Shown here piece by piece: positions 12,418 through 63,599 of a stretch of DNA of 64,000 bases. The translations under genes and the position numbers were made by a program. The stretch is taken from positions 372,001-436,000 of the forward strand of contig NC_089435.1 in NCBI RefSeq assembly GCF_026210795.1. The letters run 5' to 3'. Position 1 is the first letter of the stretch. The number at the start of each line of letters is the position of its first letter. The notes under the pieces were generated by a model, which saw only the letters and a program-made list of their open reading frames with translations, was not told where the DNA came from and did not search any database. This DNA comes from Rhizophagus irregularis (lineage: Eukaryota).

Positions 12418-15400
12418 ATGGAAACCAAATTTAGTAAATCTAATATCTCAGTTGCTGATATAGTAAACACCAAAAATTGTTTATATTGCAATAAACCCTT
12501 TACTGAAGAATTATGGTGTAAAGAATGTATTAATTCTTTAGAAAAATCAGCAGAAAATGGTAATAAAGTAGCAATATTTAATTTAGCTAAAAGGTATTAC
12601 AATGGGGAAGGAACAGAAAAGAATTTAGAAAAAGCCTTTTATTGGTATCAAAAAGCAGCAGAAAATGGTGATGAAGAGGTAATGCATAATTTAGCTTTTT
12701 GTTATTACAATGGAGAAGGAACAGAAAAGAATTTGGAAAAAGCCTTTTATTGGTATCAAAAAGCAGCAGAAAATGGTTTCATTTATTCAATGCATAATTT
12801 AGCCTTACGTTATTACAATGGAGAAGGAACAGAAAAGAATTTAGAAAAAGCCTTTTATTGGTATCAAAAAGCAGCAGAAAATGGTTTCACTAATTCAATG
12901 CATAATTTAGCCTTTTGTTATGAAAATAAAGAAGGAACAGAAAAGAATTTAGAAAAAGCCTTTTATTGGTATCAAAAAGCAGCAGAAAATGGTTTCACTA
13001 ATTCAATGCATAATTTAGCCTTACATTATTACAATGGAGAAGGAACAGAAAAGAATTTAAAAAAGGCCTTTTATTGGTATCAAAAAGCAGCAGAAAATGG
13101 TTTCACTATTTCAATGCATAATTTAGCCTTTTGTTATGAAAATGGAGAAGAAACAGAAAAGAATTTAGAAAAAGCCTTTTATTGGTATCAAAAAGCAGCA
13201 GAAAATGGTGATGAAGAGGTAATGCATAATTTAGCCAATTGTTATTACAATGGAGAAGGAACAGAAAAGAATTTAGAAAAAGCCTTTTATTGGTATCAAA
13301 AAGCAGCAGAAAATGGTTTCACTATTTCAATGCATAATTTAGCATTACGTTATGAAAATGAAGAAGGAACAGAAAAGAATTTAGAAAAAGCCTTTTATTG
13401 GTATCAAAAAGCAGCAGAAAATGGTTTTACTATTTCAATGCATAATTTAGCCCTACATTATTACAATGGAGAAAGAACAGAAGAGAATTTAGAAAAAGCC
13501 TTTATTTGGTATCAAAAAGCAGCAGAAAATGGTTTCACTAATTCAATGCATAATTTAGCCTTACGTTATTACAATGGAGAAGGAACAGAAAAGAATTTAG
13601 AAAAAGCCTTTTATTGGTATCAAAAAGCAGCAGAAAATGGTTTCACTAATTCAATGCATAATTTAGCCTTATGTTATTACAATGGAGAAGGAACAGAAAA
13701 GAATTTAGAAAAAGCCTTTTATTGGTATCAAAAATCAGCAGAAAATGGTTTCACTAATTCAATGCATAATTTAGCCAATTGTTATTACAATGGAGAAGGA
13801 ACAGAAAAGAATTTAGAAAAAGCCTTTTATTGGTATCAAAAAGCAGCAGAAAATGGTTTCACTATTTCAATGCATAATTTAGCATTACGTTATTACAATG
13901 GAGAAAGAACAGAAGAGAATTTAGAAAAAGCCTTTATTTGGTATCAAAAAGCAGCAGAAAATGGTTTCACTAATTCAATGCATAATTTAGCCTTACGTTA
14001 TTACAATGGAGAAGGAACAGAAAAGAATTTAGAAAAAGCCTTTTATTGGTATCAAAAAGCAGCAGAAAATGGTTTCACTAATTCAATGCATAATTTAGCC
14101 GTATGTTATTACAATGGAGAAGGAACAGAAAAGAATTTAGAAAAAGCCTTTTATTGGTATCAAAAATCAGCAGAAAATGGTTTCACTAATTCGATGCATA
14201 ATTTAGCCTTTTGTTATGAAAATGGAGAAGGAACAGAAAAGAATTTAGAAAAAGCCTTTTATTGGTATCAAAAAGCAGCAGAAAATGGTTTGACTAATTC
14301 AATGTATAATTTAGCCTTTTGTTATGAAAATGAAGAAGGAACAGAAAAGAATTTAGAAAAAGCCTTTTATTGGTATCAAAAATCAGCAGAAAATGGTTTG
14401 ACTAATTCAATGCATAATTTAGCCTTTTGTTATGAAAATAAAAAAGGAACAGAAAAGAATTTAGAAAAAGCCTTTTATTGGTATCAAAAAGCAGCAGAAA
14501 ATGGTTTTACTGATTCAATGCATAATTTAGCCTTTTGTTATGAAAATGAAGAAGGAACAGAAAAGAATTTAGAAAAAGCCTTTTATTGGTATCAAAAAGC
14601 AGCAGAAAATGGTTTCACTAATTCAATGCATAATTTAGCCTTACATTATTACAATGGAGAAGTAATAGAAAAGAATTTAGAAAAAGCCTTTATTTGGTAT
14701 CAAAAAGCAGCAAAAAATGGTTTTACTGATTCAATGCATAATTTAGCCTTACGTTATTACAATGGAGAAGGAACAGAAAAGAATTTAGAAAAAGCCTTTT
14801 ATTGGTATCAAAAAGCAGCAGAAAATGGTTTCACTAATTCAATGCATAATTTAGCCTTATGTTATAACAATGGAGAAGGAATAGAAAAGAATTTAGAAAA
14901 AGCCTTTTATTGGTATCAAAAAGCAGCAGAAAATGGTTTTACTAATTCAATGTATAATTTAGCCTTACATTATTACAATGGAGAAGGAACAGAAAAGAAT
15001 TTAGAAAAAGCCTTTTATTGGTATCAAAAAGCAGCAGAAAGTTGTTTCACTAATTCAATGTATAATTTAGCCATTTGTTATGAAAATGGAGAAGGAACAG
15101 AAAAGAATTTAGAAAAAGCCTTTTATTGGTATCAAAAAGCAGCAGAAAATGGTTTCACTAATTCAATGTATATTTTAGCCTTTTGTTATGAAAATGGAGA
15201 AGGAACAGAAAAGAATTTAGAAAAAGCCTTTTATTGGTATCAAAAAGCAGTAGAAAATGGTGTTAAAGAGGCAATGCATAATTTAGCCTTACGTTATTAC
15301 AATGGAGAAGGAACAGAAAAGAATTTAGAAAAAGCCTTTTATTGGTATCAAAAAGCAGCAGAAAATGGTGAAAAAAAAGCAATGAATAATTTAGCCATAT

Positions 15401-17374
15401 GTTATTACAATGGAGAAGGAATAGAAAAAAATTTAGAAAAAGCTTTTTATTGGTATCTTAAATCAGCAGAAAATGGTTTCACTGATTCTATGTATAATTT
15501 AGCCTTACGTTATTACAATGGAGGAGGAACAGAAAAGAATTTAGAAAAAGCCTTTTATTGGTATCAAAAAGCAGCAGAAAATGGTTTCACTAATTCAATG
15601 TATAATTTAGCCTTTTGTTATGAAAATGGAGAAGGAACAGAAAAGAATTTAGAAAAAGCCTTTTATTGGTATCAAAAAGCAGCAGAAAATGATGTTGAAG
15701 CAATACATAATTTAGCCAATTCTTATTATAATGGAGAAGGAACAGAAAAGAATTTAGAAAAAGCCTTTTATTGGTATCAAAAAGCAGCAGAAAATGGTTT
15801 CACTAATTCAATGCATAATTTAGCCTTTTGTTATGAAAATGGAGAAGGAACAGAAAAGAATTTAGAAAAAGCCTTTTATTGGTATCAAAAAGCAGCAGAA
15901 AATGGTTTCACTAATTCAATGTATAATTTAGCCTTTTGTTATGAAAATGGAGTAGGAACAGAAAAGAATTTAGAAAAAGCCTTTTATTGGCGTCAAAAAG
16001 CAACAGAAAGTAACAAAATAGATTTTAAAAATGAAGTTGAATTATGCAATATATGCAAACAGCTATATACTAATTACCAGTGGTGTCAACAATGTAATGT
16101 CAAACAATTTCAACAAGATTTTTCAAAGTGGACCAGTAAAAATGAATTTATTGATAAATTTATTCAAGAAGCACAACTAAATGCCAAAAATAGTTATGAA
16201 ATTTTAGAATGGATACCTTATAATAAATTGTCAAATATCAATTATTATGATAAAGGAGGATTTAGTGAAATTCATAAAGCTATCTGGTTAGATGGTCCTA
16301 TTTTTAGTTGGAATTTTGACAAACAACAATGGAATAGACAATTAGGTTATGAGGTTATTCTTAAAACACTTAATAATTCATCAAGTTTAAATAGTAAATT
16401 TCTGGATGAGGTATATATATTATTTATATTTATTAGCAATTTTTTTTTCTTTTACAAAAATTAATTTTGTTTTATTATTTATACAGTGGAAATATCATTA
16501 TAATTGTCAGAAAAAATCATTTTCAAAATTTATTCAATTTTTTGGATGTACCCAAGATCCAAATAATTTAAATTATATAATAGTAATGAGTTATGCAAAA
16601 AAAGGAAGTTTAAGAAAATGTTTGTCTGATATAATTAAATTTAAATGGCAAGAAAAGTTACAATTATTGAAAAAAATTGTATTAGGGCTCAAAGTAATTC
16701 ATGAATCAAATTTAACTCATGGTGATTTTCATGATGGTAATATTTTAATATCAGATAATTACAATGAGTTATTTATTATTGATTTAGGATTATGTAAACC
16801 TATAAATGATTTACAAGATTCTGACAATAAAATTAAAGAAATTTATGGAGTTTTACCTTATATGGCACCTGAAACATTAAGACAAAAACCCTATACACCA
16901 GCAAGTGATATTTATAGTTTTTCAATGATAATGTGGGAATTTACATCAGGTATTCCTCCATTTAATCGTGTAGCACATGATCATCACCTTATTTTGAGTG
17001 TCTGTGAAGGGAAACGCCCTGAAATTGTTGAAAATACTCCAAAATGTTATATAGATTTAATGAAAAAATGTTGGGATTCAGATCCTTCCAATAGACCGAC
17101 CATAACAATGCTCGAAGATATTATATCTGAGTGGATTAGATGTATTAATGAATATTATAGAATAAACAGGGATGGAAATTATAAATTTGTAGTATCTAAT
17201 ATAGATAATAAATTAAAAGATGATATGTTTGAATTTATAAAAGCAAACAAAACTTTAGTACAAGAACAAGCAAATGCTTCTATTATACAATCACATACAC
17301 AAGCATATTATACAAGTCGTAAATTTACTGAAATCTTAAATACTGGTTGTCTTGAATGTGAAGTTAATATTTAA
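12418..17374 (+). CDS. SEL1-array + TKL-type protein kinase, paralog 1 (32 SEL1 repeats; ~1626 aa). Exons 12418-16410 and 16487-17374
   Basis: The two overlapping ORFs are joined by a phase-0 intron GTATAT...ATACAG (16411-16486). Order: CLYC...WCKEC, 32 x 36-aa SEL1 repeats, CNIC...WCQQC, WTSKNEFID, then kinase motifs KGGFSEI, VILK, HGDFHDGN, DLG, YMAPE, SDIYSF, CWDSDPSNRP. Confidence 0.92.
12571..16012 (+). repeat. Coding tandem array of 32 near-identical 108-bp SEL1 units
   Basis: Near-invariant core GGAACAGAAAAGAATTTAGAAAAAGCCTTTTATTGGTATCAAAAAGCAGCAGAAAATGGT recurring every 108 nt (one 105-nt unit). Confidence 0.95.
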
Positions 17375-22200: not shown

Positions 22201-23443
22201 TTATCTTGTAATTTGAAATACTTCATATTCTTCCACAGAAAATAAATCAGAAAATAAATCAGTAGTTTCACTGATTTGTTTTTCGTAAGCAAAATTACCA
22301 CATACATTTACCAAAATCTCCATCTAAAACCAAGTCACTGATACCAAATAATGGTCCACGATCAAAGGAGTTAAGTATAGCGACTTTTTCATTTTTTATA
22401 CGACTTAAAATATAACTTTTAATATCATTATATCTCTTAAACGAGAATATAAAACTGTCCTTAGTAGTGCCATAAGAATCATCAGACTTCCATTCAATTG
22501 GATTATATCCACCAAAAATTTCCTTACTGACTTTCACCTTAATAATTGTTACAGTACGAGATTGATTATCACAAATTTCATGAAATTTTTTATATGTAAA
22601 TCCATCACGAGATCCACAAAGTAACAATTTGAATTTGTATGTATTTTTTATCTCATCTGTAATTTCAGTTCTATCGATCCATTTTGAGATTAATTCAGCA
22701 TGTCGAATTGTAATAATTTTGGAATCAATGGAATCAATATTAATTTCTTCAGTAGTAATATGAGGTTTTGATGTTTTACTTGATTGGATACTGGGTTTCA
22801 AGAAATATTTTAATAAATCTTCATATAATTCCTTTAATATAATTTTTTTATAAGGCAATACTTTATCTGCAAATTCTTCAGAAGTTAAATTATAGAATCT
22901 AATATGTGGAACGCAATGTTATAAACTATTTTTCAAAGCATTAAAATCTTCTTTTGAAAAATTAGTAGGATCGGAAGGTTTTGGATTTTGAGCAAGTTTC
23001 CATCTAAGCACATTTTTCCATACTTGAATTTCATTCATTTGAAGATTATCACTTTGAATAAGTGAAACCAAAAGTTTTTCTGAAATTGAGGAAAAATTTA
23101 GAGATTTATATATCTTGTTTGGCTCTTTGGTTATTAAATTATTACAAAATTCTTAAAGTTCCAAGAAAGAATCATTCTCAAAACTTGTCTTATATATCAA
23201 ATCAAAATTAAATTCCATCCAATTTGCCTTAGTTTCAATCAAAAAGGATTGTAAATAAGTGGTTAATTCTTGGAGACCAAGTTCACTACCAGAAACTAAG
23301 ATATCCAAAGTATCATGCAGATATGCTTGATAGTTTTGTGTTACATGAAAAATAATGACATCATTGCAGATCTTGATAATTTACTCTTTTCCGTTAATAT
23401 AAAAAATTTTAAATATTTTTTTTGCTAAAGTTTTATTATCCAT
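22201..23443 (-). pseudogene. Decayed BTB-BACK-TLDc gene
   Basis: Recognisable BACK (ELGLQELTTYLQSFLIETKANWME; LQMNEIQVWKNVLRW) and TLDc (FKLLLCGSRDGF...FHEICDNQ...FGGYNPIEW...VEEYEVFQI) segments. In-frame TAA at 23153-23155 and 22919-22921, a frameshift near 22295, and most of the BTB region missing or garbled. Confidence 0.85.
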
Positions 23444-28995: not shown

Positions 28996-30453
28996 CTATT
29001 TTTTAATTACTTTAAATACTTCATAATCTTCTACTTCGAAATTTGTTGGGATTCCTATTTTAGAATAGCGATTTCCACTATCGTAATTATTATAACACCA
29101 ATTATTATTATAACAGGTTAAATTACCCATAGTTGGACCATGACTATCGCCACAAAAAACTGCAAGTTGTGAAGAATTAACATAACTTACTCTTGCAGCA
29201 TAAGTATTTTTTCCATTTGGAAAATTAAATAAAAAACTATCTGCTGTAGTTTTCCATGCCCAACTTACATCCCAATCAAGGGGATTGTATCCTCCAATTA
29301 ATTGTAATGAATTTTTAATTTTTGCTACCCAAATAGTAGCTCCTTTATTATCACAATTTTTATGAAAATCTTTAACATCATTTCCATCCTGACTTAAGCG
29401 ATATAATAATTCAAATTTATAAGGAATATTTTTTCTATTATAACATGAAGAACTTTTTTTGTCAATCCATGAAGCTAAAATAGAAACATTGTTTGGTTCA
29501 ATTAAAGTTGATTTAAAATTAGTTTTTCTTGAAGGTGTAAAATTGGATTTAGGTTTTATATTAGGAACAATATGAAATTCTAAAAGATCATGAATTAATT
29601 CCTGTGGTAAGATATCTTTATAACAATATACTTTATAAAAGAAATCTATGGGATCAATATCGTAAAATCGAATTAAAGGGATAAATCTTTGTAATGCCTT
29701 CTCGATCTTTGTAATATCTTCTTTATTCCATTTTGATGGTTCATTCTTTATATTTTGTTGAGTAAAACACCATTTTAACAAATTCTCCCAAATTTCAATT
29801 TCTTCCATATTTAAATCATCCCTTTTTAATAACGATTCTAATAAAGGAGCTTTTAAATAAATAAATCTATCAGAATTAAATAAAACTTGAGGTTCTTTAC
29901 AGATATTTTCAAGACAGAAATTCCATAAATCTGTAAATGTTTCATATTGATAAACAGTTTCAAGAATTTCAGTTGGATTTTGATATAAAAATTCAGTTTG
30001 ATGTTTAATCAAAAATTCTTGAATATGAGATACTAAAGGATGAAGATTAAGTTCATCAACTGCTATTAACAATTTCAATATGTCAGAACCTTGTAAATTC
30101 TTTAATTCAATATTTCCACAATAAAAAAACCTATTAATATAATGATTAATTAATTAAACTTTTTCTTTAAAAAAAAATATGATTATTAAAAATAAATACC
30201 TAAGAATAATATTAAATAATTGTGGAGAAATATTTGGTTTTTTGAAAATAAATTTTCCATCTTTCTTTTCAGCCCATTCATTAGAAAATGCAGAGCGAAA
30301 ATATTGAGACCTAATAGATAAAATATTAGAATGAGCATGAATTTCTTTAACATATTGCTCTTCACCAGCATAAATAATAACGTCATATCCAATTTCTGTT
30401 TCAAAAAGTTTTTCATAATCGCTAGATAATTCTGCCCAAAATTTTGAAGACAT
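28996..30453 (-). CDS. BTB/POZ-BACK-TLDc domain protein (462 aa). Exons 30200-30453 and 28996-30130
   Basis: MSSKFWAELSSDYEKLFETEIGYDVIIYAGEE...HAHSNILSIRSQYFRSAF (BTB). A GT-AG intron at 30131-30199 restores ILRFFYCGNIEL. BACK region follows, then TLDc (FELLYRLSQDG...FHKNCDNKGAT...IGGYNPLDW...VEDYEVFKV). Confidence 0.92.
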
Positions 30454-31053
30454 TGTTTTTAAATTTTTTAAATAATAAAGCAAGAAATGCAAAAAAAAAT
30501 GCAGGTAAAATTAAAGTTTGGGATACGAACGTCCTTTATTTATATTATGTTATGGTGATCATGTCTATAACCGAACACCCGTACTACCTAATATAGAATT
30601 CCAATGCCAATCATCTTCAATTTTGCTGTTACTGAGAAGTCTAACTACTACGGACGGATTTGCGTAATTTATAAATATTTTGAGTCAACGAAAATAGATT
30701 TATTTACAGAAGCTTTGCAGAAATAAATTTGGTTATAATTATCACCCGTATTATTTATAAGATGTAACCGTTATTTTGATGATAGATAAAATAATTTTAA
30801 CTACAAAAGCTGTTGTTTCAGTTATAAAAGATCAAATAAGAAATAATTTTATTATATATCCTTATAGGATCACACTGTATTTTTTTTACATTTATTGAAT
30901 AGCTTTATTGATGATATATATAATAAATGAATACTGTTTAAATCATTACAAATACATAATAAAATTAATAAAATTAGATTTTTATACAAATAGACTATAA
31001 ATTAACTCGTGACTGATTTAATAGTGTGATCGTGAGAGTCTATATAATAAAAC

Positions 31054-33873: not shown

Positions 33874-36800
33874 TTATTCTGATTGATTATAAAGGTTTAT
33901 TCCGATTGCACACTCTAAACATTCACTATATTTTGGAAGTTCTTTTGTAAAAGAATTAAGTATTCGAGATGTATAAATAGCCTGGAGATGAGTATCTGGT
34001 TGATTATTTTTATATATTCCATCATTGTTTAATCTATATTCTTCTGCTTCTTTAAATTGATCTTCGTAATTTGAATAAAATAGACTAATCATTTTTTCCA
34101 CCTCAGCAACATTGGGTCTATTAATTGGATTTAAATCCCAACACTTTTTCATTAAGTCAACATAACACTTAGGTGCTTCTGGCTTATTTATTTCAGGTCT
34201 AGTGCCATTACATATGTCTAATGCTAAAAACTCATCATGTGCACAATTTGCAAAAGGTTGTCTTTCAGTTGCTACAAAATACATAATCATTCCAAAACTA
34301 AATATATCTGCTGCTTTAGTATAAGGACCTCCTCTTAATACTTCAGGAGCTACATAAGGCATAACTCCATAAATTTTTGTTTCATCTACATTATCAACTT
34401 CTCCACATAATCCCATGTCAGAAATGTAATTTGAAGTAATCCAATAATAAGTATCCTTAAATAATATATTTCCTGTATGAAAATCACGATGAACCATATG
34501 CTTTTGATGTATCTCTTTAAGACCATTAATAATATTCTTTAATACTTTTAATTTATTTATCCATTCAAAATGCTTATAATTTTTCTTCATCCAATTGTTA
34601 AAATTTCCTCCTCTTGCATATTGTAGAACCATAACATAGGTTTTTGTATTAGGGTTCTGAGATATTCCATAAATTTTTAGAATTTCGCCAGAATTATTAA
34701 TATTATTGAGGTCATTAATTGAATATGCTTTAACCTAAAGATAAAGAATCAATTATATTCAAAAGAATTATATTTAAGTACAAAAGTTAAAAATTCTTTT
34801 ACCTCGTTAAAAAATTTATTAGAGAAGTTTTGTGAATTATTTAAACATTTTAAAGCCACTGTTTTATTAAAATCTCTTATATATTCCTTTTCATTCCAAC
34901 ATAATGGACCGTCCTTCCATCTTGCTGAATATACCTTAGCAAACCCACCTTTACCTATTTCTTTAATCTCATTGAACTGATCATAAGGTATCCATTCAAA
35001 TATTATGTCTTTATAATCATTAATTTTTAATTGCATTTCTTGAATTAATTTATCAATTTGTTCATTATCACTGGTCCAGTTTGTAAAATTTTCTTTTAAA
35101 TGATTTATTTGACATGATTTACACCATTTATACTTTGCATCTATGTATTTAATAGAACATTTATCACAAAAATATCTAAAATATTGATCATAACTAAAAA
35201 CTATGATGTAGTCTTTTGTATTGCGATTATGAGTTATTCCATATATTTCAAATTCGTCATAGCATGATGTAATCTATTAAGAAGAATATTAATACTTTAG
35301 AAAATGTTTGAAATAAATTTCTAGAAAACTTACGTACCTCATTCAAAAATTCGTTTGTAATATTTTCTGAATTAAATAAGTATTTTAAAGCAACAGTTTT
35401 ATCTGCTGTATTTCTTACATATTTCTTCTCATTCCAACGTAATGGACCATCCTTCCATCTTGCTGAATATGCTGTATTATTGCCTATTTTTTCAATATCA
35501 CTAAACTGATAATATGGTATCCATTCAAATATTATGTCTTTATAATCATTAATTTTTAATTGCATTTCTCGTATTAAATTATCAATCTGCTCATTTTCAC
35601 TGGTCCAGTTTGCGAAATTTTCTTTTAAATAATTTATTTGGCATAGTTTACACCATCTATACTTTGCACTTATGTATTTTCTAGCGCATTTATCACAAAA
35701 AATTCTAGAATATTGATCTTGATTAAGAATTAGGATGTAATCTTTTGTATTAGGATTTTGAGTTATTCCATATATTGTAAGAAGTTTGTCATAATATTCC
35801 ATAATCTATACATTAACAAAAAGTATTAATAATATAGAAATACTTGAAATAAAATATATAAAAACTTATATACCTCCTTTAAAAGTTTACTAGTAATATG
35901 TTGCGAATTAACTAAACATTTTAAAGTAACTATTTTATTCAATGAATTTCTTGTATATGTATTATTGTAATAATAATATGACAATGGTCCATCCTTCCAA
36001 CTTGCTAAATATACTGTATTGTTACTTGCTTCTTCAATTTCAATAAACTGATAATACGGTATCCACTCAAATATTGTATTCTTATAATTATTAATTTTTA
36101 ATTGCATTTCTTGAATTAAATTATCAATTTGTTCATTTTCGCTGGTCCAATTTATGAAATTCTTTTTTAGCCACTTTATTTGACATAGTTTACACCATTT
36201 ATACTCCATATTTACATATCTATTAGCACATTTATCACAAAAAATCTTAAGGTATTGATTTTCATCAAGGACTATAATGTAATCTTGTGTAATAGGATTT
36301 TGAGTTATTCCATATATTTTGAACTTGTCATAATATTCTACAATCTGTTAAAAAATTATTTATAATGTATATAAGAAGTATTTTTAAATCGAATTTATAG
36401 AAGAATTACATACCTCATTCAAAAGCTTATCAGTAATGTTTTGTGAATTGTTTAAATATTCTAAAATAACTACTTTATTTACTGAATTTCTTACATATTT
36501 CTTTTTATTCCAGTACAATGAACCTTCATTCCATTTTGCTGAATATACTAAATTATTTAATTCTTTAATATTATCAAACTGGCTATATGATATCCATTCA
36601 AATATTATATCTCTATGACTTTTAATTTTTAATTGCAGTTCTTGAATTAAGTCATCAATTTGTTTATTCTCACTGGTCCAGCTTGTAAAATTTTCTTCTA
36701 GCCAGCCTACTTGACATGGTTTGCACCATTTATATTCTGATTTTGTATAATACTCTTCACATTTTACACAGCAATTTTCCAAATATTGATCTTTATTAAA

Positions 36801-39800
36801 TATTATAATGTAATTCATTGTATTAGGATTTTGAGATATACCATATATTTTAACTTTATCATAATATGTTATAATCTATTGAAAAAAAAATCAATACTTT
36901 AGAAAACATTTGAAATAGATTTCTAGAAAACTTGCATACCTCATTTAAAAATTCATTTGTAATATTTTCTGAATTAATTAAGTATTTTAAAATAACTGCC
37001 TGATTTGCTGAATTCCTTGTGTATTTTTCTTTATAGTAATTATATAATAATGGACCATCCTTCCATTTTGCTGAATACACCATATTGTCTAATTCTTCAA
37101 TATTACTAAACTGATAGTAAGATATCCATTCAAATATTATATCTTTATAATCATTAACTTTTAATTGCATTTTTTGAATTAGTTTATCAATCTGTTTATT
37201 TTCACTGGTCCAGCTTGTGAAATATTTTTCAAAACAATTTATTTGACATGCTTTACACCATTTATACCATGACTTTGTGTAATATTTTCCACATTTTATA
37301 CAGCAATTTCCTAAATACTGATTTTTATTAATTATTATAATATAATCTTTTGTATTAGGACTTTGAGATATACCATATATTTTAACTTTATCATAATATG
37401 CTATAATCTATTAAAATAATAAGTATCAATATACTATAATTAGTTGAAATTAACTTCATAAAAAAATTTACATACCACATTTAAAAATTCATTTGTAACA
37501 TTTTGTGAATCAACTAAATATTTTAAAATAACTTCTTGATTTGCTAAATTTCTTGTATATTTATTTGCATAATAGACATATGATAATGGACCATCTTTCC
37601 ATTTTGCTGAATACACTTTATTATTACCTACTTCTTTAATATCACTAAATTGGTTATATGGTATCCATTCAAATATTACATCTTTATAATCATTAACATT
37701 TGATTGCATTTTTTGGATTAATTTGTCAATTTGTTTATTTTTACTAGTCCAGTTTGTAAAATTTTCTCTTAACCAATTTATTTGACATGGTTTGCACAAT
37801 TTATACTCTGATTTTGTGTAATACTTGTCGCACTTTATACAGCAATATTTTAAATATTGATCTTCATTAAATATTATAATGTAATCTTTTGTATTAGGAT
37901 GCTGAGATATACCATATGTTTCAATTTCATTATAATATGTTATTATCTATTAAATAATAATATTATATTAATATTACAAAAAATATTTGAAAATAAATTT
38001 ACAAAAAACTAATATATACTACCTTCAAAAATTCACTAGCAATATCTAGTGGATTGATTAAATATTTTAAAATAACTGCTTTATTTAAATCTTTATGCTT
38101 TTTTTCATTCCAATATAATAAACTATCTTTCCATTTTGCTGAATATATTTTATTGGTTAATTCAATAATATTATTAAACTGATTATATGGTATCCATTTA
38201 AATGTAATATCTTTATAATCATTTATTTCTAATTGTTTCTTTTGAATTAGGTTGTCAATTTTTTCATCTCCACTAGTCCAGTTCGTGAAATTTTCTTTTA
38301 GCCAGTTTATTTGACATGGTTTGCACCATTTATACTCTGATTTTGTGAAATATTTTTCGCATTTTATACAGTAATTTTTCAAATATTGATCTTTATTAAA
38401 TATCATAATGTAATCTTTTGTTTTAGGATTTTGTGACATACCATATATTTTAGCTTTATCATAATAAGCCATAATCTATTAAAAATGTATCAATATATTA
38501 TGTTGTACCGTAATGTACTTGAAATTAAATTCATAGAAAATTTACATACCTCATTTAGAAACTCATTAGTGATATTTTGTGAATTTACTAAATATTTTAA
38601 TACAACTGCAATATTTGTTAAATTTCTTGTATATTCATTCTTATAATAGTTGTTATATGATAATAAACCATCTTTCCATATTGCTAAATATGTTGTATTG
38701 CTTAATACTTTAATATCATTAAATTGATTGTATGATATCCATTCAAATATTATATCTTTATGATTATTAATATTTAGTAACTGCATTTTTTGAATTAAAC
38801 TATCAATTTGTTCATTCTTGCTGGTCCAGTTTGTGAAATTTTCTTTTAACCAATTAATTTTACATGGTTTACACCATTTATACTCTGATGTTGTGTAATA
38901 CTTTCCACATTTTATACAGCAATTTTCCAAATATTGATCTTTATTAAATATCATAATGTAATCTTTAGTATTAGGACTTTGTGATATACCATATATTTTA
39001 ACTTTATCATAATATGCTATAATCTATTGAAAAATTATTAACAATACAGAAAGTAGTAGAATTAAATTTATTAGAAAAACTTACATACCTCATTCAACAA
39101 TTCATTAGTAATATTTTTCGAATTAACTAAATATTTTAAAATAATTGGCTTATTTGCTGAATTTCTTGCATATTCATTTTTATAAAAATAGTTACTATAT
39201 GATAATGGGCCATCCCTCCATCTCGCTAAATATGCTATACTGCTTAATTCTTCAATATCATTAAACTGACAGTACGGTATCCATTCAAATATAATATCTC
39301 TATAATTACTAATTTTTAATTGCATTTTTCGAATTAGATTATCAATTTTTTCATTTTCACTGGTCCAATTTGTGAAATTTTCTTTTAACCAACTTATTTG
39401 ACAATGTTTACAACATTTATATCGTTTGTTCCATGCATTTGTGTAATACTTTCCACAATTTACACAGCAATCTTCTAAATATTGATCTTTATTGAATACT
39501 ATAATATAATCTTTTGTTTTAGGATTTTGAGATATGCCATATATTTTAAATTCACCATAAGTTGCCATAATCTATTGAAAAAAAATATTAATAATAGTAG
39601 AAATACTTGAATCAAAATATATAGAAATTTGTAATTTTGTATACCTTTTTCAGAAATTCATTCGTAATATTTTGTGAATTAACCAAATATTTTAAAATAA
39701 CGGATTTATTTGCTGAATTTCTTGCATATTCTTCATTATAATAGTTATATGATAATGGACCATTCTCCCATTTCGCTGAATATACTATATTATCTAATCT

Positions 39801-40526
39801 TTCGATATCATTGAACTGGTAATATGGTATCCATTCAGATATTGCATCTTCATAATCATTAATACTTAATTGTATCTCTTGAATTAAATTGTCAATTTGT
39901 TCATTTTCACTGGTCCAGTTCATGAAATTTTCTTTTAACCAATTTATTTGACATGGTTTACACCAGTTATACTCTGAATTTGTATAATACTTTCCACATT
40001 TTATGCATTTTCCATAAAAGATTTCAAAATTTTTTAATATAAAAAACTCAAAATCATTGTAATAATCCTCTATTTGGTATTGTCTGAACTGTATAAAAGC
40101 ACAAAATTATTATTATAATTACTGTATAGTAAAAAAAAAAAATTATTTAATTATAAAATTTCGTACCTTATTTAGACCTTTTAAAACTTCATTATATAAA
40201 TACACTTTTAAAGCAACTATCCTATTTGATTTTTTTATAAGTTCCTTTATATTCCAATTTAATGGACTAAATTTCCATATTGTTGAATATACCGCATTGC
40301 TTATTTCTTTAATTCTATCAAATTGATTGCATGAGATCCATTCAAACATTATATCTATGTAACAATTAATTTTTAATTGTATTTCTTGAATTAGATTATC
40401 AATATCTTTATTTCCACTAGTCCAGCTTGTAATTTGACATGTTTCACACCATTTATATTTAATATTTATGTACATATTGCCGCATTTTACACACTTGTTT
40501 GTGTTATTTGTTAATAAGTTCTGCAT
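33874..40526 (-). CDS. 12-exon protein (~1961 aa): 11 tandem Cys4 + kinase N-lobe modules ending in one complete TKL-type kinase
   Basis: Exons 40167-40526, 39645-40088, 39089-39571, 38550-39023, 38023-38475, 37476-37946, 36940-37407, 36414-36875, 35874-36344, 35338-35805, 34803-35273, 33874-34734. All introns are GT-AG and every exon length is a multiple of 3. The terminal kinase has GKGGFAKVY, VALK, HRDFHTGN, DMG, YVAPE, ADIFSFG, CWDLNPINRP. Confidence 0.8.
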
Positions 40527-42385: not shown

Positions 42386-44441
42386 TTAATATAAACTTCC
42401 ATAGTTATATGCTTTCACAATAGGCGCAAATTTATTTGGTACTTGAATATTTTTTCCAATATATCTATCATATTGGTTAGCAAATTTATGAGGAAATGGA
42501 ACTTCGTTTGGTTTAGAAACATCATCAAGTCTTTTCATTTGTTCAGGTGTCAATCTGAAAAAAATTAAATTTATATTAGAAACATTTTTTTTTTTTTAAA
42601 AAGAAAATTTTTTTTTTCAAATAATTATACTAACTTGAATTCAAGCGATCTAAGATTTTCTTCAAGCTGACTGACTGTTCTAGCACCAATTAGAGAACTT
42701 GTAATACCAGGTTTTTGTTGAACCCAATTCAAAGCAACCTACTTATTTAAGAAAAATATTTTTATTAATAAATTATATTTAAATATTTAGAGGATTGAAT
42801 ATAAATAATTACCTGAACTGGAGATCTATCAATTTCTTCTGAAATTGCAATAACTTCATCTAAAATTTTCCAATTTTTTTCAGATTTTGAATAAGCTCCG
42901 ATTGCTTTATTACGAATGTTTAGTTTTGGATCAACTGTCGATTCTCTTGTATATTTTCCGGTAAGAAAACTATTAAAAGAAATAATTAATATAACGTTAA
43001 TATTTTAACAATGAATACATCATATAATTAATAATTAATAATTACCCTTCAGCAATAGTACCCCATGGAATAACTCCAACCTAAATAATTTGATTTAATA
43101 TCATTATTTAATTCAAGTACTAGTAGTATAAATGTAAAATATAAGTTTATAATACATTACATCAAGTTCAGCACAAGCAGGTTGTAAGTCAAATTCAAAC
43201 GATCGATTCAATAAACTATAACGTGTTTGAAGTCCAATGAAAGGGCTAAAGTAGTTTATAAATATGAGTTAACTTAATAACTTTAGTTTTTATTAGGTTA
43301 AAGTAATTATTATAATTTCATACCTCCATCCACGTAATTCAGCAATAGTATTAGCTCGAGCGAGTGCCCAAGATGGAATATCGCTCACGGCAACATATAA
43401 TGCCTATTTTTTTTTAATAATATTTAGAAAAAAAATTGTTCGAGTAAATATTATAAGAAAAATAAGTTTGCTTACTTTTCCACTTCGAATAACGTCATCT
43501 AATGATCTCATCATTTCTTCGATTGGAGTTCGATATTCAAACATATGAGCATATAAAATATCAACATAGTTCATATTTAATCGTTTCAAACTTTCATCTA
43601 AATTTTCCACAAGACTTTTTCGATGATTTCCCCCTATATGTTTAATTATCAATTAACATAAAATGTTTTAACTGTACTATTATAATTTACTAGCTCACCG
43701 AAATTCGGATTGAATTTCTGATCCTTTAACATAGCAGTTCTATTAGCTGTAAAAATAAATCTTGAAGGTTATTGAAAATTCCAAATTTGAATGATATTAT
43801 AAAGATAATTCATGATCCATACTTGTATATTTTGTTGCAATTACGACATTGGATCGTTTATCAGAGACGTAATCTCCAAGGAAACGTTCACTCTAATCAT
43901 TTATTAATAAATATTAATATTAAATTAAATAAAAAAAAAATAATAATTATAATATCAATACTTACTTCACCAAAATTGTAAATGTTGGAGGTATCTGAAA
44001 AATATACGTTATTATTAAATTATTCGAAAAATTATGAAATGACTTATTATTGACTACGTAAATTAATGAAAAATTACCAAAGAAATTTCCACCCCTTTCG
44101 TAATAAAGATCAAAAACTTTTTTCGATTTTTCTTTATCAGCGCCCACTCCCTATTTGTAAAGTGTTAATGAAATTCAGATATCATTTTTTTCATTTCTTA
44201 ATATAGAGTATATAACTTACCCATTGTTCACCAAAAGTCTTCAATATACAGCATAATTATGTTAATATTAATAAAATGTTTTGTTATCAAAGATATTCAT
44301 AATAATTTTGGTTAGATTGCAAAATTATCTTACCACAGTGCCAAGACATAATGGAGAAATTCTCAATCCAGAACGCCCCAACAAGACATATTCATCAAGA
44401 GCTTTAGTAGTTTTGACGGGAGAAGTATAATCTTGAGACAT
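42386..44441 (-). CDS. Aldo-keto reductase (aryl-alcohol dehydrogenase-like), paralog 2; ~13 exons
   Basis: ATG at 44441 (MSQDYTSPVKTTKALDEYVLLGRSGLRISPLCLGTV). Motifs DTSNIYNFGE, IATKY, GGNHRKSL, DILYAH, GLQTRYSLLNRSFEFDLQPAC, GVIPWGTIAEG, SPVQVALNWV, LIGARTVSQLEENL. Ends ...YNYGSLY* at 42386. Confidence 0.9.
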
Positions 44442-48399: not shown

Positions 48400-51300
48400 T
48401 TAAATTTTAATTACACATTCAAAACACTCAGAATTTTCTTGAACTAAGATTTCAGTAAGTCTGCGACTTGTATAATATGCTTGTGAATGAGATTGTATAA
48501 TAGCAGTATTTGCTTGTGGATGATATTGTATAATAGAAGTATTTGCTTGTTCTTGTACTAAAGTTTTGTTTGCTTCTACAAATTCAATCATATCATCTTT
48601 TAATTGATCATCAACATTAGATACCTTAAATTTATAATCTCCATCCCTGTTTATTTCATAATATTCATTAATACATCTAATCCATTCAGATATAATATTT
48701 TCAAGCATTCCTATAGTTGGTCTATTGGAGGGATTTGAATCCCAACATTTTTTCATTAAATCTATATAACATTTTGGAGTATTTTTTATGATTTCAGGAC
48801 GTTTCCCTTTACAAATATTCAAGGTAAGGTGATGATCATGTGCCTCATGATTAAATGGAGGAATACCTGATGTAAATTCCCACATTATCATTGAAAAACT
48901 ATAAATATCACTTGCTGGAGTATAAGGTTTCATTCTTAATATTTCTGGTGCCATATAAGGCAAAACTCCATAAATTTCATTAATTTTATTATCAGTATCT
49001 TGCAAATCATTCATAGGCTTACATAATCCCATATCAATAATAAATAACTCATTGTAATTATCTGACATTAAAATATTACCATCATGAAAATCACCATGAG
49101 TTAAATTTGATTCATGAATTACTTTAAGTCCTAATATAATTGTTTTCAACAATTGTAACTTGTCTTGCCATTTAAATTTAATTATATCAGATAAGCATTT
49201 TCTCAAACTTCCTTTTTTTGCATAACTCATTACTATTATATAATTTAAATTATTTGGATCTTGGGTAAATCCAAAGAACTGAATAAATTTTGAAAATGAT
49301 TTTTTCTGACAATTATAATGATATTTCCACTATATAAATAAAAAAAAATCATTAAAGTTTTGCAAAAGATTATAAAATTTGCTATTAAATAAAAATACTA
49401 TACCTCATTCAGAAATTTACTATTTAAATTTGATGAATTATTAAGTGTTTTAAGAATGACTTCATAACCTGTTTGAAAATTACATCTATTCCATTGTTGT
49501 TTGTCAAAATTCCAACTAATAATAGGTCCATCTAACCAGATAGCCTTATAAATTTCGCCAAATCCTCCTTTATCATAATAATTAATATTTGACAATTTAT
49601 TATATGGTATCCATTCTAAAATTTCATAACTATTTTTAGCATTTAATTGTGCTTCTTGAATAAATTTATCAATAAATTCATTTTCGCTAGTCCACTTTAA
49701 AAAGTCTTGTTGGAATCGTTTAATATTACATTTTTGGCACCACTGGTAATCATTATATGGTTGCTTGCATTCATTACATAATTCAGCTTCATTTTTAAGA
49801 CCCACTTTGTTACTTTCAACTATTTTTTGATGCCAATAAAATGCTTTTTCTAAATTCTTTTCTGTTCCTTCTCCATTTTCATAACATAAGGTTAATAAAA
49901 ACATTGCGGTAGTATGTCCATTTTCTGCTGCTTTTTGATACCAATGAAAGGCTTTTTCTAAATTATTTTCTATTCCTTCTCCTTTAATATACATACAGGC
50001 TGAGTAAAACATTGCATCAGTATGTCCATTTTGTGCTGCTCTTTGATACCAATAAAATGCTTTTTCTAAATTCTTTTCTGTTCCTTTTCCTTCTTTATAA
50101 CATATGGCTAAACTATTCATTGCTTTAATATGATCTTTTTCTGCTGCTTTTTGATACCAGTGAAAAGCTTTTTCTAAATTTTTTTCTGTTTCTTCTCCAT
50201 TATTATACATGATGGCTAGATTAAACATTGCATTTTCATCATTTTTTGCCGCTTTTTGATACCAATAAAAGGCTTTTTCTAAATTCTTTTCTGTTCCTTC
50301 TCCTTTTTTATAATAAATGGCTAAATTGAACATTGCATTAGTATGTCCATTTTCTGCTGCTTTTTGATACCAATGAAAGGCTTTTTCTAAATTATTTTCT
50401 ATTCCTTCTCCTTTAATATACATACAGGCTGAGTAAAACATTGCATCAGTATGTCCATTTTGTGCTGCTCTTTGATACCAATAAAATGCTTTTTCTAAAT
50501 TCTTTTCTGTTCCTTTTCCTTCTTTATAACATATGGCTAAACTATTCATTGCTTTAATATGATCTTTTTCTGCTGCTTTTTGATACCAGTGAAAAGCTTT
50601 TTCTAAATTTTTTTCTGTTTCTTCTCCATTATTATACATGATGGCTAGATTAAACATTGCATTTTCATCATTTTTTGCCGCTTTTTGATACCAATAAAAG
50701 GCTTTTTCTAAATTCTTTTCTGTTACTTCTCCTTTTTTATAATATATGGCTAAATTACTCATTGCTTCTTCAATACCATTTTCTGCTGCTTTTTGATAAC
50801 AATGAAAGGCTTTTTCTAAATTCTTTTCTATTCCTTCTCCATTTTCATAACATACGGCTAAATTAAACACTGCATAAGTATGTCCATTTTCTGCTGCTTT
50901 TTGAAACAAATGAAAGGCTTTTTCTGAATTCTTTTCTGTTCCTTTTCCATTATAATAACATGTAGCTAAGTTAAATATTGCTTCTTTAACACCATATTCT
51001 GCTACTTTTTTATACCAATAAAATGCTTTTTCTAAATTCTTTACTGTTCCTTTTCCTTCTCCATAACATATGGCTAAATTATTCATTGCTCCTTCAACAC
51101 CATTTTCAGCTGCTTTTTGATACCAATAAAAGGCTTTTTCTAAATTCTTTTCTGTTCCTTCTCCTTTTTTATAATAAATGGCTAAATTGAACATTGCATT
51201 AGTATGTCCATTTTCTGCTGCTTTTTTATACCAATGAAAAGCTTTTTCTAATTTTTTTTCTGTTCCTTCTCCATCATAATAACACATGGCTAAATAAACC

Positions 51301-52328
51301 ATTGCAATAGTATATCCATTTTCTGCTGCTTTTTGATACCAATAAAAGGCTTTTTCTAAATTCTTTTCTGTTCCTTCTCCATTATTATACATGATGGCTA
51401 AATTAGACATTGCATTAGTATGTCCATTTTCTGCTGCTTTTTTATACCAATAAAAGGTTTTTTCTAAATTCTTTTCTGTTCTTTCTCCATAATTATACAT
51501 ACTGGCTAAATTAAACATTGCATTAGCATATCCTTTCTCTGCTGCTTTTTGGTACCAATAAAAGGCTTTTTCTAAATTTTTTTTTGTTCCTTCTCCATTA
51601 TAATATTTATCGGCTAAATTAAAACTTGCTTCAATATGGTCTTTTTCAGCTGCTTTTTGTATCCAATAAAAGGCTTTTTCTAAGTTCTTTCCTGTTCCTT
51701 CTCCTATATAATAACACACTTCTAAATTAAACATTGCATTAGTATATCCATTTTCTGCTGCTTTTTGATACCAATAAAAGGCTTTTTTTGAATTCTTTTC
51801 TGTTCCTTCTCCATTTTTATACATACAGGCTAAATTAAAAATTGCTTCAATATAGTCTTTTTTGGCCGCTTTTTGCATCCAATAAAAGGCTTTTTTTAAA
51901 TTCTTTTCTGTTCCTTCTCCAGTATAATGATATATGGCTAAATTAAAAATTGCTTCAATATGGTCTTTTTCAGCTGCTTTTTGTATCCAATAAAAGGCTT
52001 TTTCTAAATTCTTTTCTGTTTCTTCTCCATTATAATATATACTGGCTAGTTTAAACATTGCATCTTCATCATCATTTTCTGCTGCTTTTTGAAACCAATT
52101 AAGGGCTTTATTTAAATTCTTTTCTGTTCCTTTTCCATAATAATAACTATTGGCTAAATTAAACATTGCTACTATATTACCACTTTCTGCTAATTTTTCC
52201 AACGAATTAATACATTCTTTACACCACAATTTTTCAGTAAAAGGCTTATTGCAATATAAACAATTTTTGATGTTTATTAAATTAGTATCTTTATCTGAGA
52301 TATTTGATTTACTAAATTTAGTAACCAT
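48400..52328 (-). CDS. SEL1-array + TKL-type protein kinase, paralog 2 (~22 SEL1 repeats; ~1284 aa). Exons 49404-52328 and 48400-49329
   Basis: Same architecture and same phase-0 intron (49330-49403, after FLNE) as paralog 1. Kinase motifs KGGFGEI, VILK, HGDFHDGN, DMG, YMAPE. Confidence 0.92.
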
Positions 52329-53519
52329 TTGGTTTTATTTTTGAGATAAATTTTGCTAAAATTTTATTTTTTTAAAAATTTTTTTTCTCGTTCAATGAAT
52401 GAGTTACTAGAAGGGAAAATTTTAATTAAAAGTAGAAGTTACGACAAAAAATTTTTTCGGACATATTTTTCCGATGCACTGATCTGCGTTGAGAAATGTT
52501 GCACTTCTACACAATAATGTATTTAATGTGACACAGAATGTTACGATTGGAATTATGTTTTACCATTCATGTGATTTTAATAAAAGGAAGGAAAAAAAGT
52601 TTTCTCACAAAATGAATATATAGAAATAATATAATAGATTAATTAAAGAATTTTAAAAACTTTTTTGTTATAGTTTTAAAAATATTATTAATATCGAATG
52701 TGTAACTCTTTCCGTCGATCATCAGTCCAAAAAATTCTCAGAACGAAAAAATAGACGGAGTGCTAAAAGTTATTTTTTAAAGATTTTTTACGTATTTCTG
52801 ACATTTTATTCACTTTTTTAAGAAGCTGTAGATATGTTTTTTTTCTCAAAAGTTATAAGTAGTTTATAGATTAATTGCCATTGACCAGGTTCGCAGGAAA
52901 TTACTTAAAAAGCTGGCATGGGCAAAGGTTTTTTAAGGAGCAGTCTTGAAAAGAAGCAACCAGGACCAATAAATAAATTAACCACTTTCACCTTACTTGT
53001 TTATGGGCTTTGGTTACTTGGACTCGGAACTTTTCCGTCTTTTTTCGCTTTTTTTTCGGTGGCGCAGCACAACGTAGTCCGAATTTCGGCAAGAAATTTT
53101 ACCGATGACGTAGTCCCAAGTGTAGATAGGTGTTGCTTAAACCTGTTTTCAATCTAAAGTATGCAGACTTGTAAGAAACCATACATGTATGAATTTTTAG
53201 CATAAGAATAAATAACATAATACATGACGATCAATCAATACATGATCATAAAACACGGTTTAATAATTTCTATTTATTAAACCAAAAACGAAAAAAAATT
53301 AAACTTTCTAATTCTTTGCGTAGCTTTATATTTTCTAATTCTAGTTTTTCAACTTCTGCTAGAGCTCTATGATTTGCTGTTTGTCTTTCAGCCAATGTTC
53401 TTTAATTTCTATTTGTAAAATAGTACACGTTTTCACTTCTACTTCTTTTATATATTATAAATATGATAAATAACTTGCAAATAAAGAAACTAAGTCCAAT
53501 TTAATAAATACACAATTAT

Positions 53520-59719: not shown

Positions 59720-60000
59720 AAGTGGAGCGGGCAAATTAAAACATGCATGATTTAGGAGTAGATTATACAAATATAGTACGAATTTGCATCAAATTGATGG
59801 GCTCAATAATATATATAAGTATATATAAAACAAGTACGGTACGAAATTTTTGGAATTTTTGGAAATTTGATGCACCGTACCGTACTGAAGATACTGAAGA
59901 TACATAATTTATAAATATTAATTAATATATGTATTTTTATTCATTTGAGAAAATAAAAAAAAATTGATTTTTATTAAATATTATAAATTTATAATGCAAT

Positions 60001-60125
60001 CATTTGTATTTGGATTTTGAGATATCCCATACATTTTAACTTTATCATAATAAGCAATAAACTATTAAAAATAGGTGTCAATTATATTATAATTATAAAT
60101 GTACTAATGTACTTGAAATAAATTA
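60001..60125 (-). pseudogene. Orphan fragment of the tandem kinase N-lobe module (intron end + exon start)
   Basis: Reads ...ag|FIAYYDKVKMYGISQNPNTN. The upstream sequence resembles intron 38476-38549 (AATGTACTTGAAAT). Confidence 0.6.
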
Positions 60126-60326
60126 TTATTCATGGTATCACGTGTCAGTCATGTCACCTAGAAATAATTTGTGACGTCATGTCACGTTAGAGTCTAACGT
60201 AGAGCAGATTATTTTTTTACTGCATGGGCATGATTTACAAATTACACAGCAACTTACTATCTTTTTTCGACCCTAAAATTTTTTTCACATAGAAATTAAC
60301 TCCCGCTAACTACTACAATAATCACT

Positions 60327-60568
60327 ATGTCTGATAGCACTGAACTTAAAATTACTAATAATTCAAATGAGTGGATTAATTGGATTGAAGAATCTATTGC
60401 GAAAGAATGAATTAAATATTATGACTATAATCATTTTAATAATATTAAAGAAATTGGTTTTGGTAGTTTAGGAAAGTCTAATCTTGCAAATTGGAAAAGT
60501 TCTCATAGTTATCTAGCATTGAAATCTTTTTTAATTTCAATGTTATGGCTAAAGAAATTATTAATGAA
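60327..60568 (+). pseudogene. Truncated first exon of a different TKL-type kinase family
   Basis: MSDSTELKITNNSNEWINWIEESIAKE*IKYYDYNHFNNIKEIGFGSLGKSNLANWKSSHSYLALKSF, then a frameshift to NFNVMAKEIINE|gt. No downstream kinase exons found. Confidence 0.75.
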
Positions 60569-63294: not shown

Positions 63295-63599
63295 TTTTTA
63301 TTTAGAAACTTATTTTATTGAAAGAATTTATTTTTTTTTGACAAATTTTTTTTTATATTTTATTGAGTTTACTAAAAAGGAATACTTGAACCAAAAGTAG
63401 AAGTCACAACAAAAAAAAAAAATTTTTTCGGGTCATATTTTTTCCGATAAACTAATCTGCGACGAGTTAAAATCATAGATAAATATCTATAATAAAATAT
63501 TGAATTTTTCAAAAATTAATCTTGTTATTTTTTTACATTAAGATTATTTGATCATATAATTTTAAAAAAAAATTAAGCGAATGTAAGCGAATTCATTAT

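What the first reader, a model, noticed from the sequence alone, without database searches (positions are those of the whole stretch)
33874..40526. Kinase with a tandem array of 11 exon-encoded 'Cys4 + N-lobe' modules, ten of them without a C-lobe
Seen: the dozen short ORFs are exons of one gene. Each internal ~150-160-aa exon encodes KIYGISQNPxTKDYIIxF (N-lobe beta4/beta5-like; degenerate in exon 2), then CxxC...WCxxC, WTSxNxxIDxLIQxMQL, EWIPYxQF, YSAxWKDGPL and VxLKYL...FLNE (beta1-beta3 and the start of helix C). Only module 11 has a Gly-rich loop (GKGGFAKVY) and is followed by the C-lobe. In modules 1-10 the loop is deleted or replaced (ELDNMVY, EVGNNKVY, EASNNTVY) while the Cys, Trp and nearly all beta3 Lys residues are kept and the frames appear open. 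Established: an N-lobe alone cannot catalyse, and plant tandem kinase-pseudokinase proteins act as immune receptors. Inference: this is a chain of diversified half-kinase modules acting as decoys, sensors or scaffolds for one active kinase. I do not recognise it as a characterised architecture.
Basis: partly seen in the sequence, partly recalled or inferred. Interest (0 to 1): 0.88.

Follow-up and report, generated by a model that had tools for sequence, protein, structure and literature searches.

The report
Kinase preceded by ten half-kinases
A gene of a root-symbiotic fungus is predicted to splice into one intact protein kinase preceded by ten copies of only the front half of a kinase domain; more than a hundred database proteins of such fungi share the layout with varying copy numbers, and the half-kinases likely act as a repeated binding arm that controls the one working enzyme.

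Summary
Confirmed and extended. Twelve exons joined by 11 phase-0 GT-AG introns give an open 1961-aa frame: ten Cys4-helix-N-lobe modules without a C-lobe, then one intact TKL-type kinase. Correction: each exon is a circular permutation of the module; the intron lies in helix C, inherited from ordinary Glomeromycotina kinases. It is a family, not one gene: the top 120 database hits (Rhizophagus, Glomus) carry 4-15 modules, any C-lobe always last; Acaulospora and Gigaspora have arrays too. Modules are predicted to fold as N-lobes (Z 9), lose the Gly loop (27 of 754 internal versus 75 of 87 terminal keep it) and stay under purifying selection (omega 0.31). The few fast sites lie in the zinc knuckle and a hairpin, also in loop-intact N-lobes, favouring a multiplied recognition cap over an active-site decoy. 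No transcript across the array was seen. No Pfam model and no description in ten literature searches; no earlier scan note on this layout.

The parts
33874..40526 (-). Whole predicted gene, 12 exons, 1961 aa: 10 N-lobe-only modules + 1 complete TKL-type kinase
   Evidence: Splice model; 10 of 11 junctions also in public model P0054 (GBC22728.2), 5 in P0093, 2 in P0282
40167..40526 (-). Exon 1: start Met, Cys4 (40493-40437), helices, beta1-beta3 and first half of helix C of module 1 (most divergent module)
39645..40088 (-). Exon 2: degenerate end of module 1, then cap and beta1-helix C of module 2
   Evidence: junction LNK|FRQ also in P0054 and P0093
39089..39571 (-). Exon 3: beta4-beta5 of module 2 + front of module 3
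38550..39023 (-). Exon 4: beta4-beta5 of module 3 + front of module 4
38023..38475 (-). Exon 5: end of module 4 + front of module 5 (alternative in-frame donor at 38020)
37476..37946 (-). Exon 6: end of module 5 + front of module 6 (loop EVGNNKVY)
   Evidence: used as search query
36940..37407 (-). Exon 7: end of module 6 + front of module 7 (loop ELDNMVY)
36414..36875 (-). Exon 8: end of module 7 + front of module 8 (beta3 Lys replaced by Glu)
35874..36344 (-). Exon 9: end of module 8 + front of module 9 (loop EASNNTVY)
35338..35805 (-). Exon 10: end of module 9 + front of module 10
34803..35273 (-). Exon 11: end of module 10 + cap and N-lobe front of the active kinase: Cys4 35168-35112, Gly loop 34955-34929, VALK 34859-34848, helix-C Glu
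33874..34734 (-). Exon 12: beta4-beta5, C-lobe (HRDFHTGN 34491-34468, DMG 34419-34411, APE 34350-34342) and C-tail with YTSR (33975-33964)
   Evidence: Pfam PK_Tyr_Ser-Thr 7.4e-32; coordinates

Best explanation
The gene is predicted to encode a soluble TKL-type kinase whose front cap (Cys4 knuckle, two helices, N-lobe) has been copied ten times without the C-lobe, and these catalytically dead copies likely form an extended repeat arm that binds partner proteins and thereby likely switches or positions the one intact kinase at the end. Shown: open frame, intact catalytic motifs in module 11 only, family-wide layout, purifying selection, relaxed ATP-site strands. Predicted: N-lobe fold, zinc binding, head-to-tail packing. 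Inferred: origin by unequal recombination between beta5 and the stretch just upstream of Cys4, then repeated gain and loss of whole intron-plus-exon units; recognition by the knuckle and the beta2-beta3 hairpin, which are already the variable surface of single kinases; same role as the Sel1 repeats that sit in the same slot of neighbouring kinases.
For: Open 1961-aa frame with homologous introns. omega 0.31 among this gene's modules; 0.31 among 27 loop-less exons. Top 120 of 643 hits carry 4-15 modules; 92 of 120 have a C-lobe, always last. Gly-loop motif in 75 of 87 kinase-attached, 27 of 754 internal and 1 of 110 first modules; Ala+Lys+Glu triad in 85 of 87 versus 187 of 754. omega of beta0-beta1, beta2, beta3 is 0.22, 0.27, 0.38 in loop-less versus 0.09, 0.11, 0.11 in 9 loop-intact exons: relaxed but far below 1. 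AlphaFold of a 5-module paralogue: pLDDT 87.9, pTM 0.63; all 50 listed structural matches are kinases, aligned mainly on their N-lobes, best Z 9.0, rmsd 2.4 over 75 residues. About 5% of sites at omega 2.2 (p=5e-6; p=0.007 and omega 1.5 with indel-adjacent codons masked) in the knuckle, the helix-beta0 loop and the hairpin; the same sites are fast in loop-intact exons. Three Sel1-repeat kinases in the window have the same cap (E 1e-41 to 1e-43) and the same intron, with Sel1 arrays in front. No membrane segment (max hydropathy 1.07).
Against: No ligand, partner or activity is known. No positive selection within this gene (p=0.46); the wider test uses my own codon code on paralogues, without a recombination test, and fast sites lie near indels. 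Public models disagree: one joins the array to the kinase but drops parts of modules (P0054, 1216 aa), another ends in exon 6 (P0093, 605 aa). 28 of 120 relatives have no C-lobe hit (partial models or kinase-less arrays). 7 of 44 complete exon-modules in metagenome loci are broken, so turnover is high. A whole subfamily lacks the Cys4 knuckle, so it is not needed for the array. The full-length model of a 5-module kinase has pTM 0.49: no fixed arrangement of arm and kinase is predicted. Gly-to-Asn/Asp/Ser drift fits AT-biased decay and need not be adaptive (inference).
Confidence: 0.55

Rival explanations
1. Integrated decoys: the dead N-lobes mimic the N-lobes of the fungus's own kinases and trap proteins of bacteria, viruses or parasites that attack them, triggering the terminal kinase, as proposed for plant tandem kinase proteins.
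For: Birth-and-death family with variable copy number; some sites with omega above 1; decoy model for plant TKPs (PMC8761531, passages); more than 2,500 kinase genes in this species to mimic (PMC10234402, passage).
Against: No signal within this gene; fast sites are not specific to dead modules; a faithful decoy would be expected to keep the target's Gly loop, which 727 of 754 internal modules lack; no attacker protein is known.
Confidence: 0.15
2. Allosteric or scaffolding arm for kinases: free N-lobes pair with the gene's own kinase or other TKL kinases through the N-lobe dimer face used by RAF and RIPK kinases (recalled), inhibiting or activating them.
For: Nearest folds are RIPK1, BRAF, MLKL, RIPK2; EWIPY and YGISQ, on and near that face (recalled), stay conserved in internal modules; pseudokinase-kinase regulation in JAK and GCN2 (PMC13519141, passages).
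Against: The same residues are conserved in all single kinases and may be simple core; RAF-type dimers also use C-lobe residues (recalled); ten diverging copies are more than one kinase needs.
Confidence: 0.12
3. Tolerated runaway duplication: the phase-0 intron makes the unit easy to copy in frame, and selection only keeps the frame open and the modules folded so the downstream kinase is still made; the modules have no function of their own.
For: Modules group mostly by gene, arrays and single kinases are interspersed on the kinase tree (11 changes), Gly loop near omega 0.9, broken copies exist, repeat-rich genome with expanded kinases near MULE elements (PMC8647823, passages).
Against: Deleting whole units would also keep the frame, yet arrays of 6-11 modules are the commonest among the top hits (biased by score) and occur in both Glomerales and Diversisporales; omega 0.2-0.3 over most of the module at dS near 0.5; 44 Cys kept.
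Confidence: 0.12
4. Not one protein: the exons form several short transcripts or a mostly silent array, and only the last one or two modules join the kinase.
For: One public model ends in exon 6 (P0093); another, on a 2-kb contig, holds only modules 10-11 (P0282).
Against: Every exon 1-11 ends in a donor and reads into a stop within tens of codons if unspliced; exons 3-11 lack their own start context; another public model joins 10 of 11 junctions; 92 of 120 relatives are modelled as array plus kinase.
Confidence: 0.06

Closest known systems
Expanded TKL / 'protein tyrosine kinase' (PF07714) family of arbuscular mycorrhizal fungi, including Sel1-repeat kinases (PMC6123716, PMC8647823, PMC10234402; passages read)
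   Same: Terminal domain matches PF07714; same Cys4-helix cap, same helix-C intron and YTSR tail as the Sel1 kinases in the window; variable-length N-terminal repeat array.
   Different: The repeats are the kinase's own N-lobe, not Sel1; the passages read describe counts and methylation, not this layout; no Pfam model covers the module.
Plant tandem kinase proteins (WTK1/Yr15, RPG1, RWT4; PMC8761531 passages)
   Same: Dead kinase-derived part fused to an active kinase, arisen by duplication, intracellular, expanded.
   Different: TKPs have two whole kinase domains; here 1-14 extra units are N-lobes only; fungal; no role in immunity shown.
JAK and GCN2 pseudokinase-kinase tandems; MLKL and RIPK kinases (PMC13519141 passages; folds)
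   Same: Non-catalytic kinase-derived domain N-terminal to an active one; nearest N-lobe folds are MLKL, RIPK2, JAK2 JH2.
   Different: Those pseudokinases are bilobed and single; Foldseek's JAK top hit is diffuse (TM 0.12-0.23, rmsd over 30) and is no architectural match.

Membership tests
Eukaryotic protein kinase, TKL-like (terminal domain) | Gly loop, beta3 Lys, helix-C Glu, HRD, DFG-like, APE | tested here: met
   GKGGFA, VALK, FFNE, HRDFHTGN, DMG, APE; PF07714 7.4e-32; fold of paralogue nearest RIPK1, BRAF, Roco4. DMG replaces DFG family-wide.
Eukaryotic protein kinase, TKL-like (terminal domain) | Phosphotransfer activity | not testable with these tools
   Needs an assay; 58 of 92 relatives with a C-lobe have HRD, 25 have HCD, HHD or HQD.
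Plant tandem kinase proteins | Two complete kinase domains joined by a linker (PMC8761531) | tested here: not met
   One C-lobe only in this protein; in the 120 relatives C-lobe hits occur only after the last module.
Plant tandem kinase proteins | Pathogen recognition and resistance | not testable with these tools
   No ligand or phenotype data.
Pseudokinase domain (sequence definition in PMC13519141) | Kinase domain lacking one or more of VAIK Lys, HRD Asp, DFG Asp | tested here: inconclusive
   Modules 1-10 lack HRD and DFG because the whole C-lobe is absent; they are half-domains, which the passages read do not cover.
Sel1-repeat kinases of Glomeromycotina | Sel1 repeats fused to the kinase | tested here: not met
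   No Sel1 match in 6 of 12 exons scanned and modules plus kinase cover the model from residue 10 to the tail.
Known zinc-ribbon or zinc-finger families | Pfam or fold match of the Cys4-helix cap | tested here: inconclusive
   Only sub-threshold Pfam hits; the cap was not folded alone and most structural rows do not cover it.

The most novel reading that the evidence does not exclude
The kinase N-lobe has been turned into a free-standing repeat domain, likely more than once in mycorrhizal fungi, giving a family of self-built receptors: arrays of up to 14 dead N-lobes that sense proteins and fire one kinase. Because every internal exon is phase 0-0 and carries the back of one N-lobe and the front of the next, skipping or reshuffling exons would build new chimeric N-lobes in frame, a combinatorial recognition system in a fungus that lives among microbes and plant roots.
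Probability: 0.2. Interest if true: 0.9.

Novelty: new variant of a known kind. Interest (0 to 1): 0.68.

Why it matters
Kinase N- and C-lobes are normally treated as one inseparable domain. A family in which the N-lobe alone is repeated 4-15 times, keeps its fold under purifying selection and loses its ATP loop would define a new repeat domain and give a natural test of what an N-lobe does without catalysis. It also gives a concrete handle on an open question, what the roughly 2,500 kinases of these symbionts sense: domain-based annotation counts these proteins as plain kinases and misses about 80% of their length.

Tried and rejected
Expression: no RNA holder listed. I guessed that runs holding about 84% of the words were spliced RNA; all 8 of 24 listed runs that I laid were intron-containing contigs, with no joint matching an intron among the rows shown, so nothing on expression. 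None of the 38 metagenome loci showed an intron-free junction. The RNA-seq row for the public model GBC22728 lies in the cut part of the supplement of PMC6123716; the supplement of PMC10234402 could not be read; both may bear on expression. Complex prediction of one internal module with the kinase domain of paralogue P0022: no verdict, score 0.00, alignment not used. Positive selection within this gene: not detected. Assembly artefact: rejected; the matching runs may be one clonal strain, so they say nothing on variation among isolates. No whole genome was held, so no per-genome gene count. Pfam hits to modules (ExsA_N, BCS1_N, NOB1 zinc ribbon) are sums of weak repeats with no significant stretch and were rejected. 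Foldseek JAK and meganuclease rows rejected as diffuse. Atlas search with P0015 gave only Mucoromycota kinase-named clusters. Independent origins: suggested by trees but no AU test was run, and concerted evolution or 5'-truncated 'single' models explain the same pattern. PMC12282663 is not held. The region table had a coordinate bug for two regions; one search replaces it.
Full report
Observation. The stretch 33874-40526 holds 12 minus-strand frames. In-frame splice sites give 12 exons and 11 GT-AG introns of 64-78 nt, all phase 0, and a 1961-aa frame with no internal stop. Eleven modules each carry CxxC-x(12-15)-CxxC, WTS-N-ID-LIQ, EWI-Y-QF and a beta3-like strand; only the last has GKGGFAKVY and is followed by a C-lobe with HRD, DMG and APE. 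Exons are 44-74% identical as protein and the introns align with each other. Contigs of 8 runs from 7 studies match the DNA with no other letters in their longest pieces, so the array is not a misassembly. The splicing is predicted; I saw no transcript.

Source and public models. Two database proteins are models of this very gene in Rhizophagus irregularis: P0054 (GBC22728.2, 1216 aa, 10 of my 11 junctions, but with parts of modules cut out) and P0093 (OCT59_026930, 605 aa, 5 junctions, ends in exon 6); P0282 holds the last two modules. All are named only as kinase-like or uncharacterised.

The unit of repetition. The intron sits just after the helix-C Glu. Three Sel1-repeat kinases in the same window have the same Cys4-helix-N-lobe front (E 1e-41 to 1e-43) and the same intron position. 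So the intron is inherited, and each internal exon is a permuted unit: back of N-lobe n (helix C second half, beta4, beta5) plus front of N-lobe n+1. The simplest origin is one unequal recombination joining beta5 to the stretch upstream of Cys4, then repeated gain and loss of intron-plus-exon units (inference).

Family. Exon 6 finds 643 proteins of 276-2000 aa at E<=1e-10; I examined the best 120, all named Rhizophagus irregularis, R. clarus or (3) Glomus cerebriforme. They carry 4-15 module hits; 92 of 120 have a C-lobe hit, always after the last module. The list is ranked by score, so it favours long arrays, and it includes alleles and two models of this gene. A profile search gave 1,370 representatives at 1e-10 (single kinases included); of the 10 most divergent multi-module ones that I looked up, 5 are Acaulospora morrowiae and 5 Rhizophagus. 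Among the first 30 of 119 shorter relatives of an Acaulospora array kinase, all Gigaspora rosea, 16 have two or more full modules. In 951 aligned modules of 121 proteins the Gly-loop motif is in 75 of 87 kinase-attached, 27 of 754 internal and 1 of 110 first modules; Ala, Lys and Glu together in 85 of 87 versus 187 of 754. Acaulospora and Gigaspora internal modules lose the loop too. One subfamily has shorter modules without Cys4. In a module tree internal copies group largely by gene, and Acaulospora internal modules group with Acaulospora terminal N-lobes (FastTree 1.0, 117 columns); in a 44-row kinase tree arrays occur on both sides of the Glomerales/Diversisporales split (2 of 46 rows dropped for lack of a catalytic motif). 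Several origins or continual regeneration from the terminal module both fit.

Structure. I folded stored paralogues, not the spliced window protein. P0015 (5 modules, 65% identical to exon 6): pLDDT 87.9, pTM 0.63, each module with beta1-beta2-hairpin-beta3-helix C-beta4-beta5 running through a short helix into the next knuckle. The 50 listed structural matches are all kinases, mainly their N-lobes; best rat MLKL Z 9.0, rmsd 2.4 over 75 residues, RIPK2 Z 8.8. P0022 (modules plus kinase): pLDDT 82.9, pTM 0.49; kinase nearest RIPK1, BRAF, Roco4. The Cys4-helix cap was not folded alone and remains unplaced. Zinc binding is inferred from the spacing.

Selection. Among exons 2-11 pairwise dN/dS is 0.48 (median; 0.31-0.70) at dS near 0.5; a codon model on exons 2-10 gives 0.31 and no positive selection (p=0.46). 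Adding metagenome exons (38 loci; 37 of 44 complete exon-modules open, 7 broken), 27 loop-less exons give omega 0.31 with about 5% of sites at 2.2 (p=5e-6; p=0.007 after masking codons near indels), and 9 loop-intact exons show the same fast sites. ATP-site strands are relaxed two- to three-fold in loop-less modules but stay at 0.2-0.4. The fast sites lie in the knuckle loop, the helix-beta0 loop and the beta2-beta3 hairpin. These tests use my own code on paralogues without a recombination check and are suggestive only.

Mechanism. An N-lobe without HRD and DFG cannot catalyse (established). Modules keep their fold, drop the ATP loop and vary on an outer surface that is already variable in working kinases. 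They sit where Sel1 repeats sit in neighbouring kinases. I therefore read the array as a multiplied recognition cap, a repeat arm that binds proteins and gates or targets the terminal kinase (0.55). Decoy (0.15), kinase scaffold or allosteric partner (0.12), tolerated duplication (0.12) and split transcripts (0.06) remain. Unreviewed notes of this scan report other kinases of the same genome with fast-changing N-termini built from microexons; I did not test them, but they fit a theme of variable front ends.

Prior knowledge. Kinase expansion in these fungi is well reported (passages of PMC6123716, PMC8647823, PMC10234402, PMC8778642). Plant TKPs are defined by two kinase domains (passages of PMC8761531); a 2026 pseudokinase review mentions N-lobe three times, none for a free N-lobe (passages of PMC13519141); a fungal immunity review gave nothing on this (passages of PMC10197012). 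Ten full-text searches (listings only) showed no paper on N-lobe-only repeats; subscription journals, including key genome papers, are not covered. No Pfam family models the module. Four look-ups of earlier scan findings showed none on this layout.

Verdict. Real, selected, family-wide and apparently undescribed; function inferred, transcript unseen. New variant of repeat-plus-kinase proteins; interest 0.68.

Noticed in passing
window 12412-17374 (+), 48400-52334 (-), 61354-63297 (-): Three Sel1-repeat kinases with very different repeat numbers (first exons of about 1350, 980 and 350 aa) sharing the Cys4 cap and helix-C intron; catalytic loop HGD, and the third has GRFS in the Gly loop.
   Followed up: partly
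window 59978-60512: Weak profile hits to kinase N-lobe pieces on both strands (E 6e-5 and 8e-4), likely a decayed kinase copy.
   Followed up: no
window 22295-22918 and 28996-30510 (-); 42386-44150 (-); 6294-8123 (+); 8712-10259 (-): Neighbours are other expanded families: two BTB-TLDc-like genes, an aldo-keto reductase, an F-box/LRR-like frame and a Sel1-only gene (names from sequence look and from the neighbours' rows).
   Followed up: no
proteins P0018, P0019, P0025, P0030, P0040 and others: A subfamily with up to 15 short modules of about 125-130 aa that lack the Cys4 knuckle, many with a TGKNG(L/S)ITVY loop; several lie on one 4.9-Mb contig.
   Followed up: partly
proteins P0177, P0200, P0242, P0279: A second Rhizophagus array lineage with a CxxC...C..H knuckle and a different kinase clade.
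   Followed up: partly
L001 87-1094: Two successive exon-modules both with an intact GEGGFA loop: possibly a young duplication before loop decay.
   Followed up: no
L032 1-1211: Metagenome contig joining an AT-rich fungal module exon to GC-rich bacterial-like genes; most likely a chimeric assembly.
   Followed up: partly
family C-lobes: 25 of 92 terminal kinases have HCD, HHD or HQD instead of HRD, and some have DMGS or DMGG: frequent non-RD variants.
   Followed up: no
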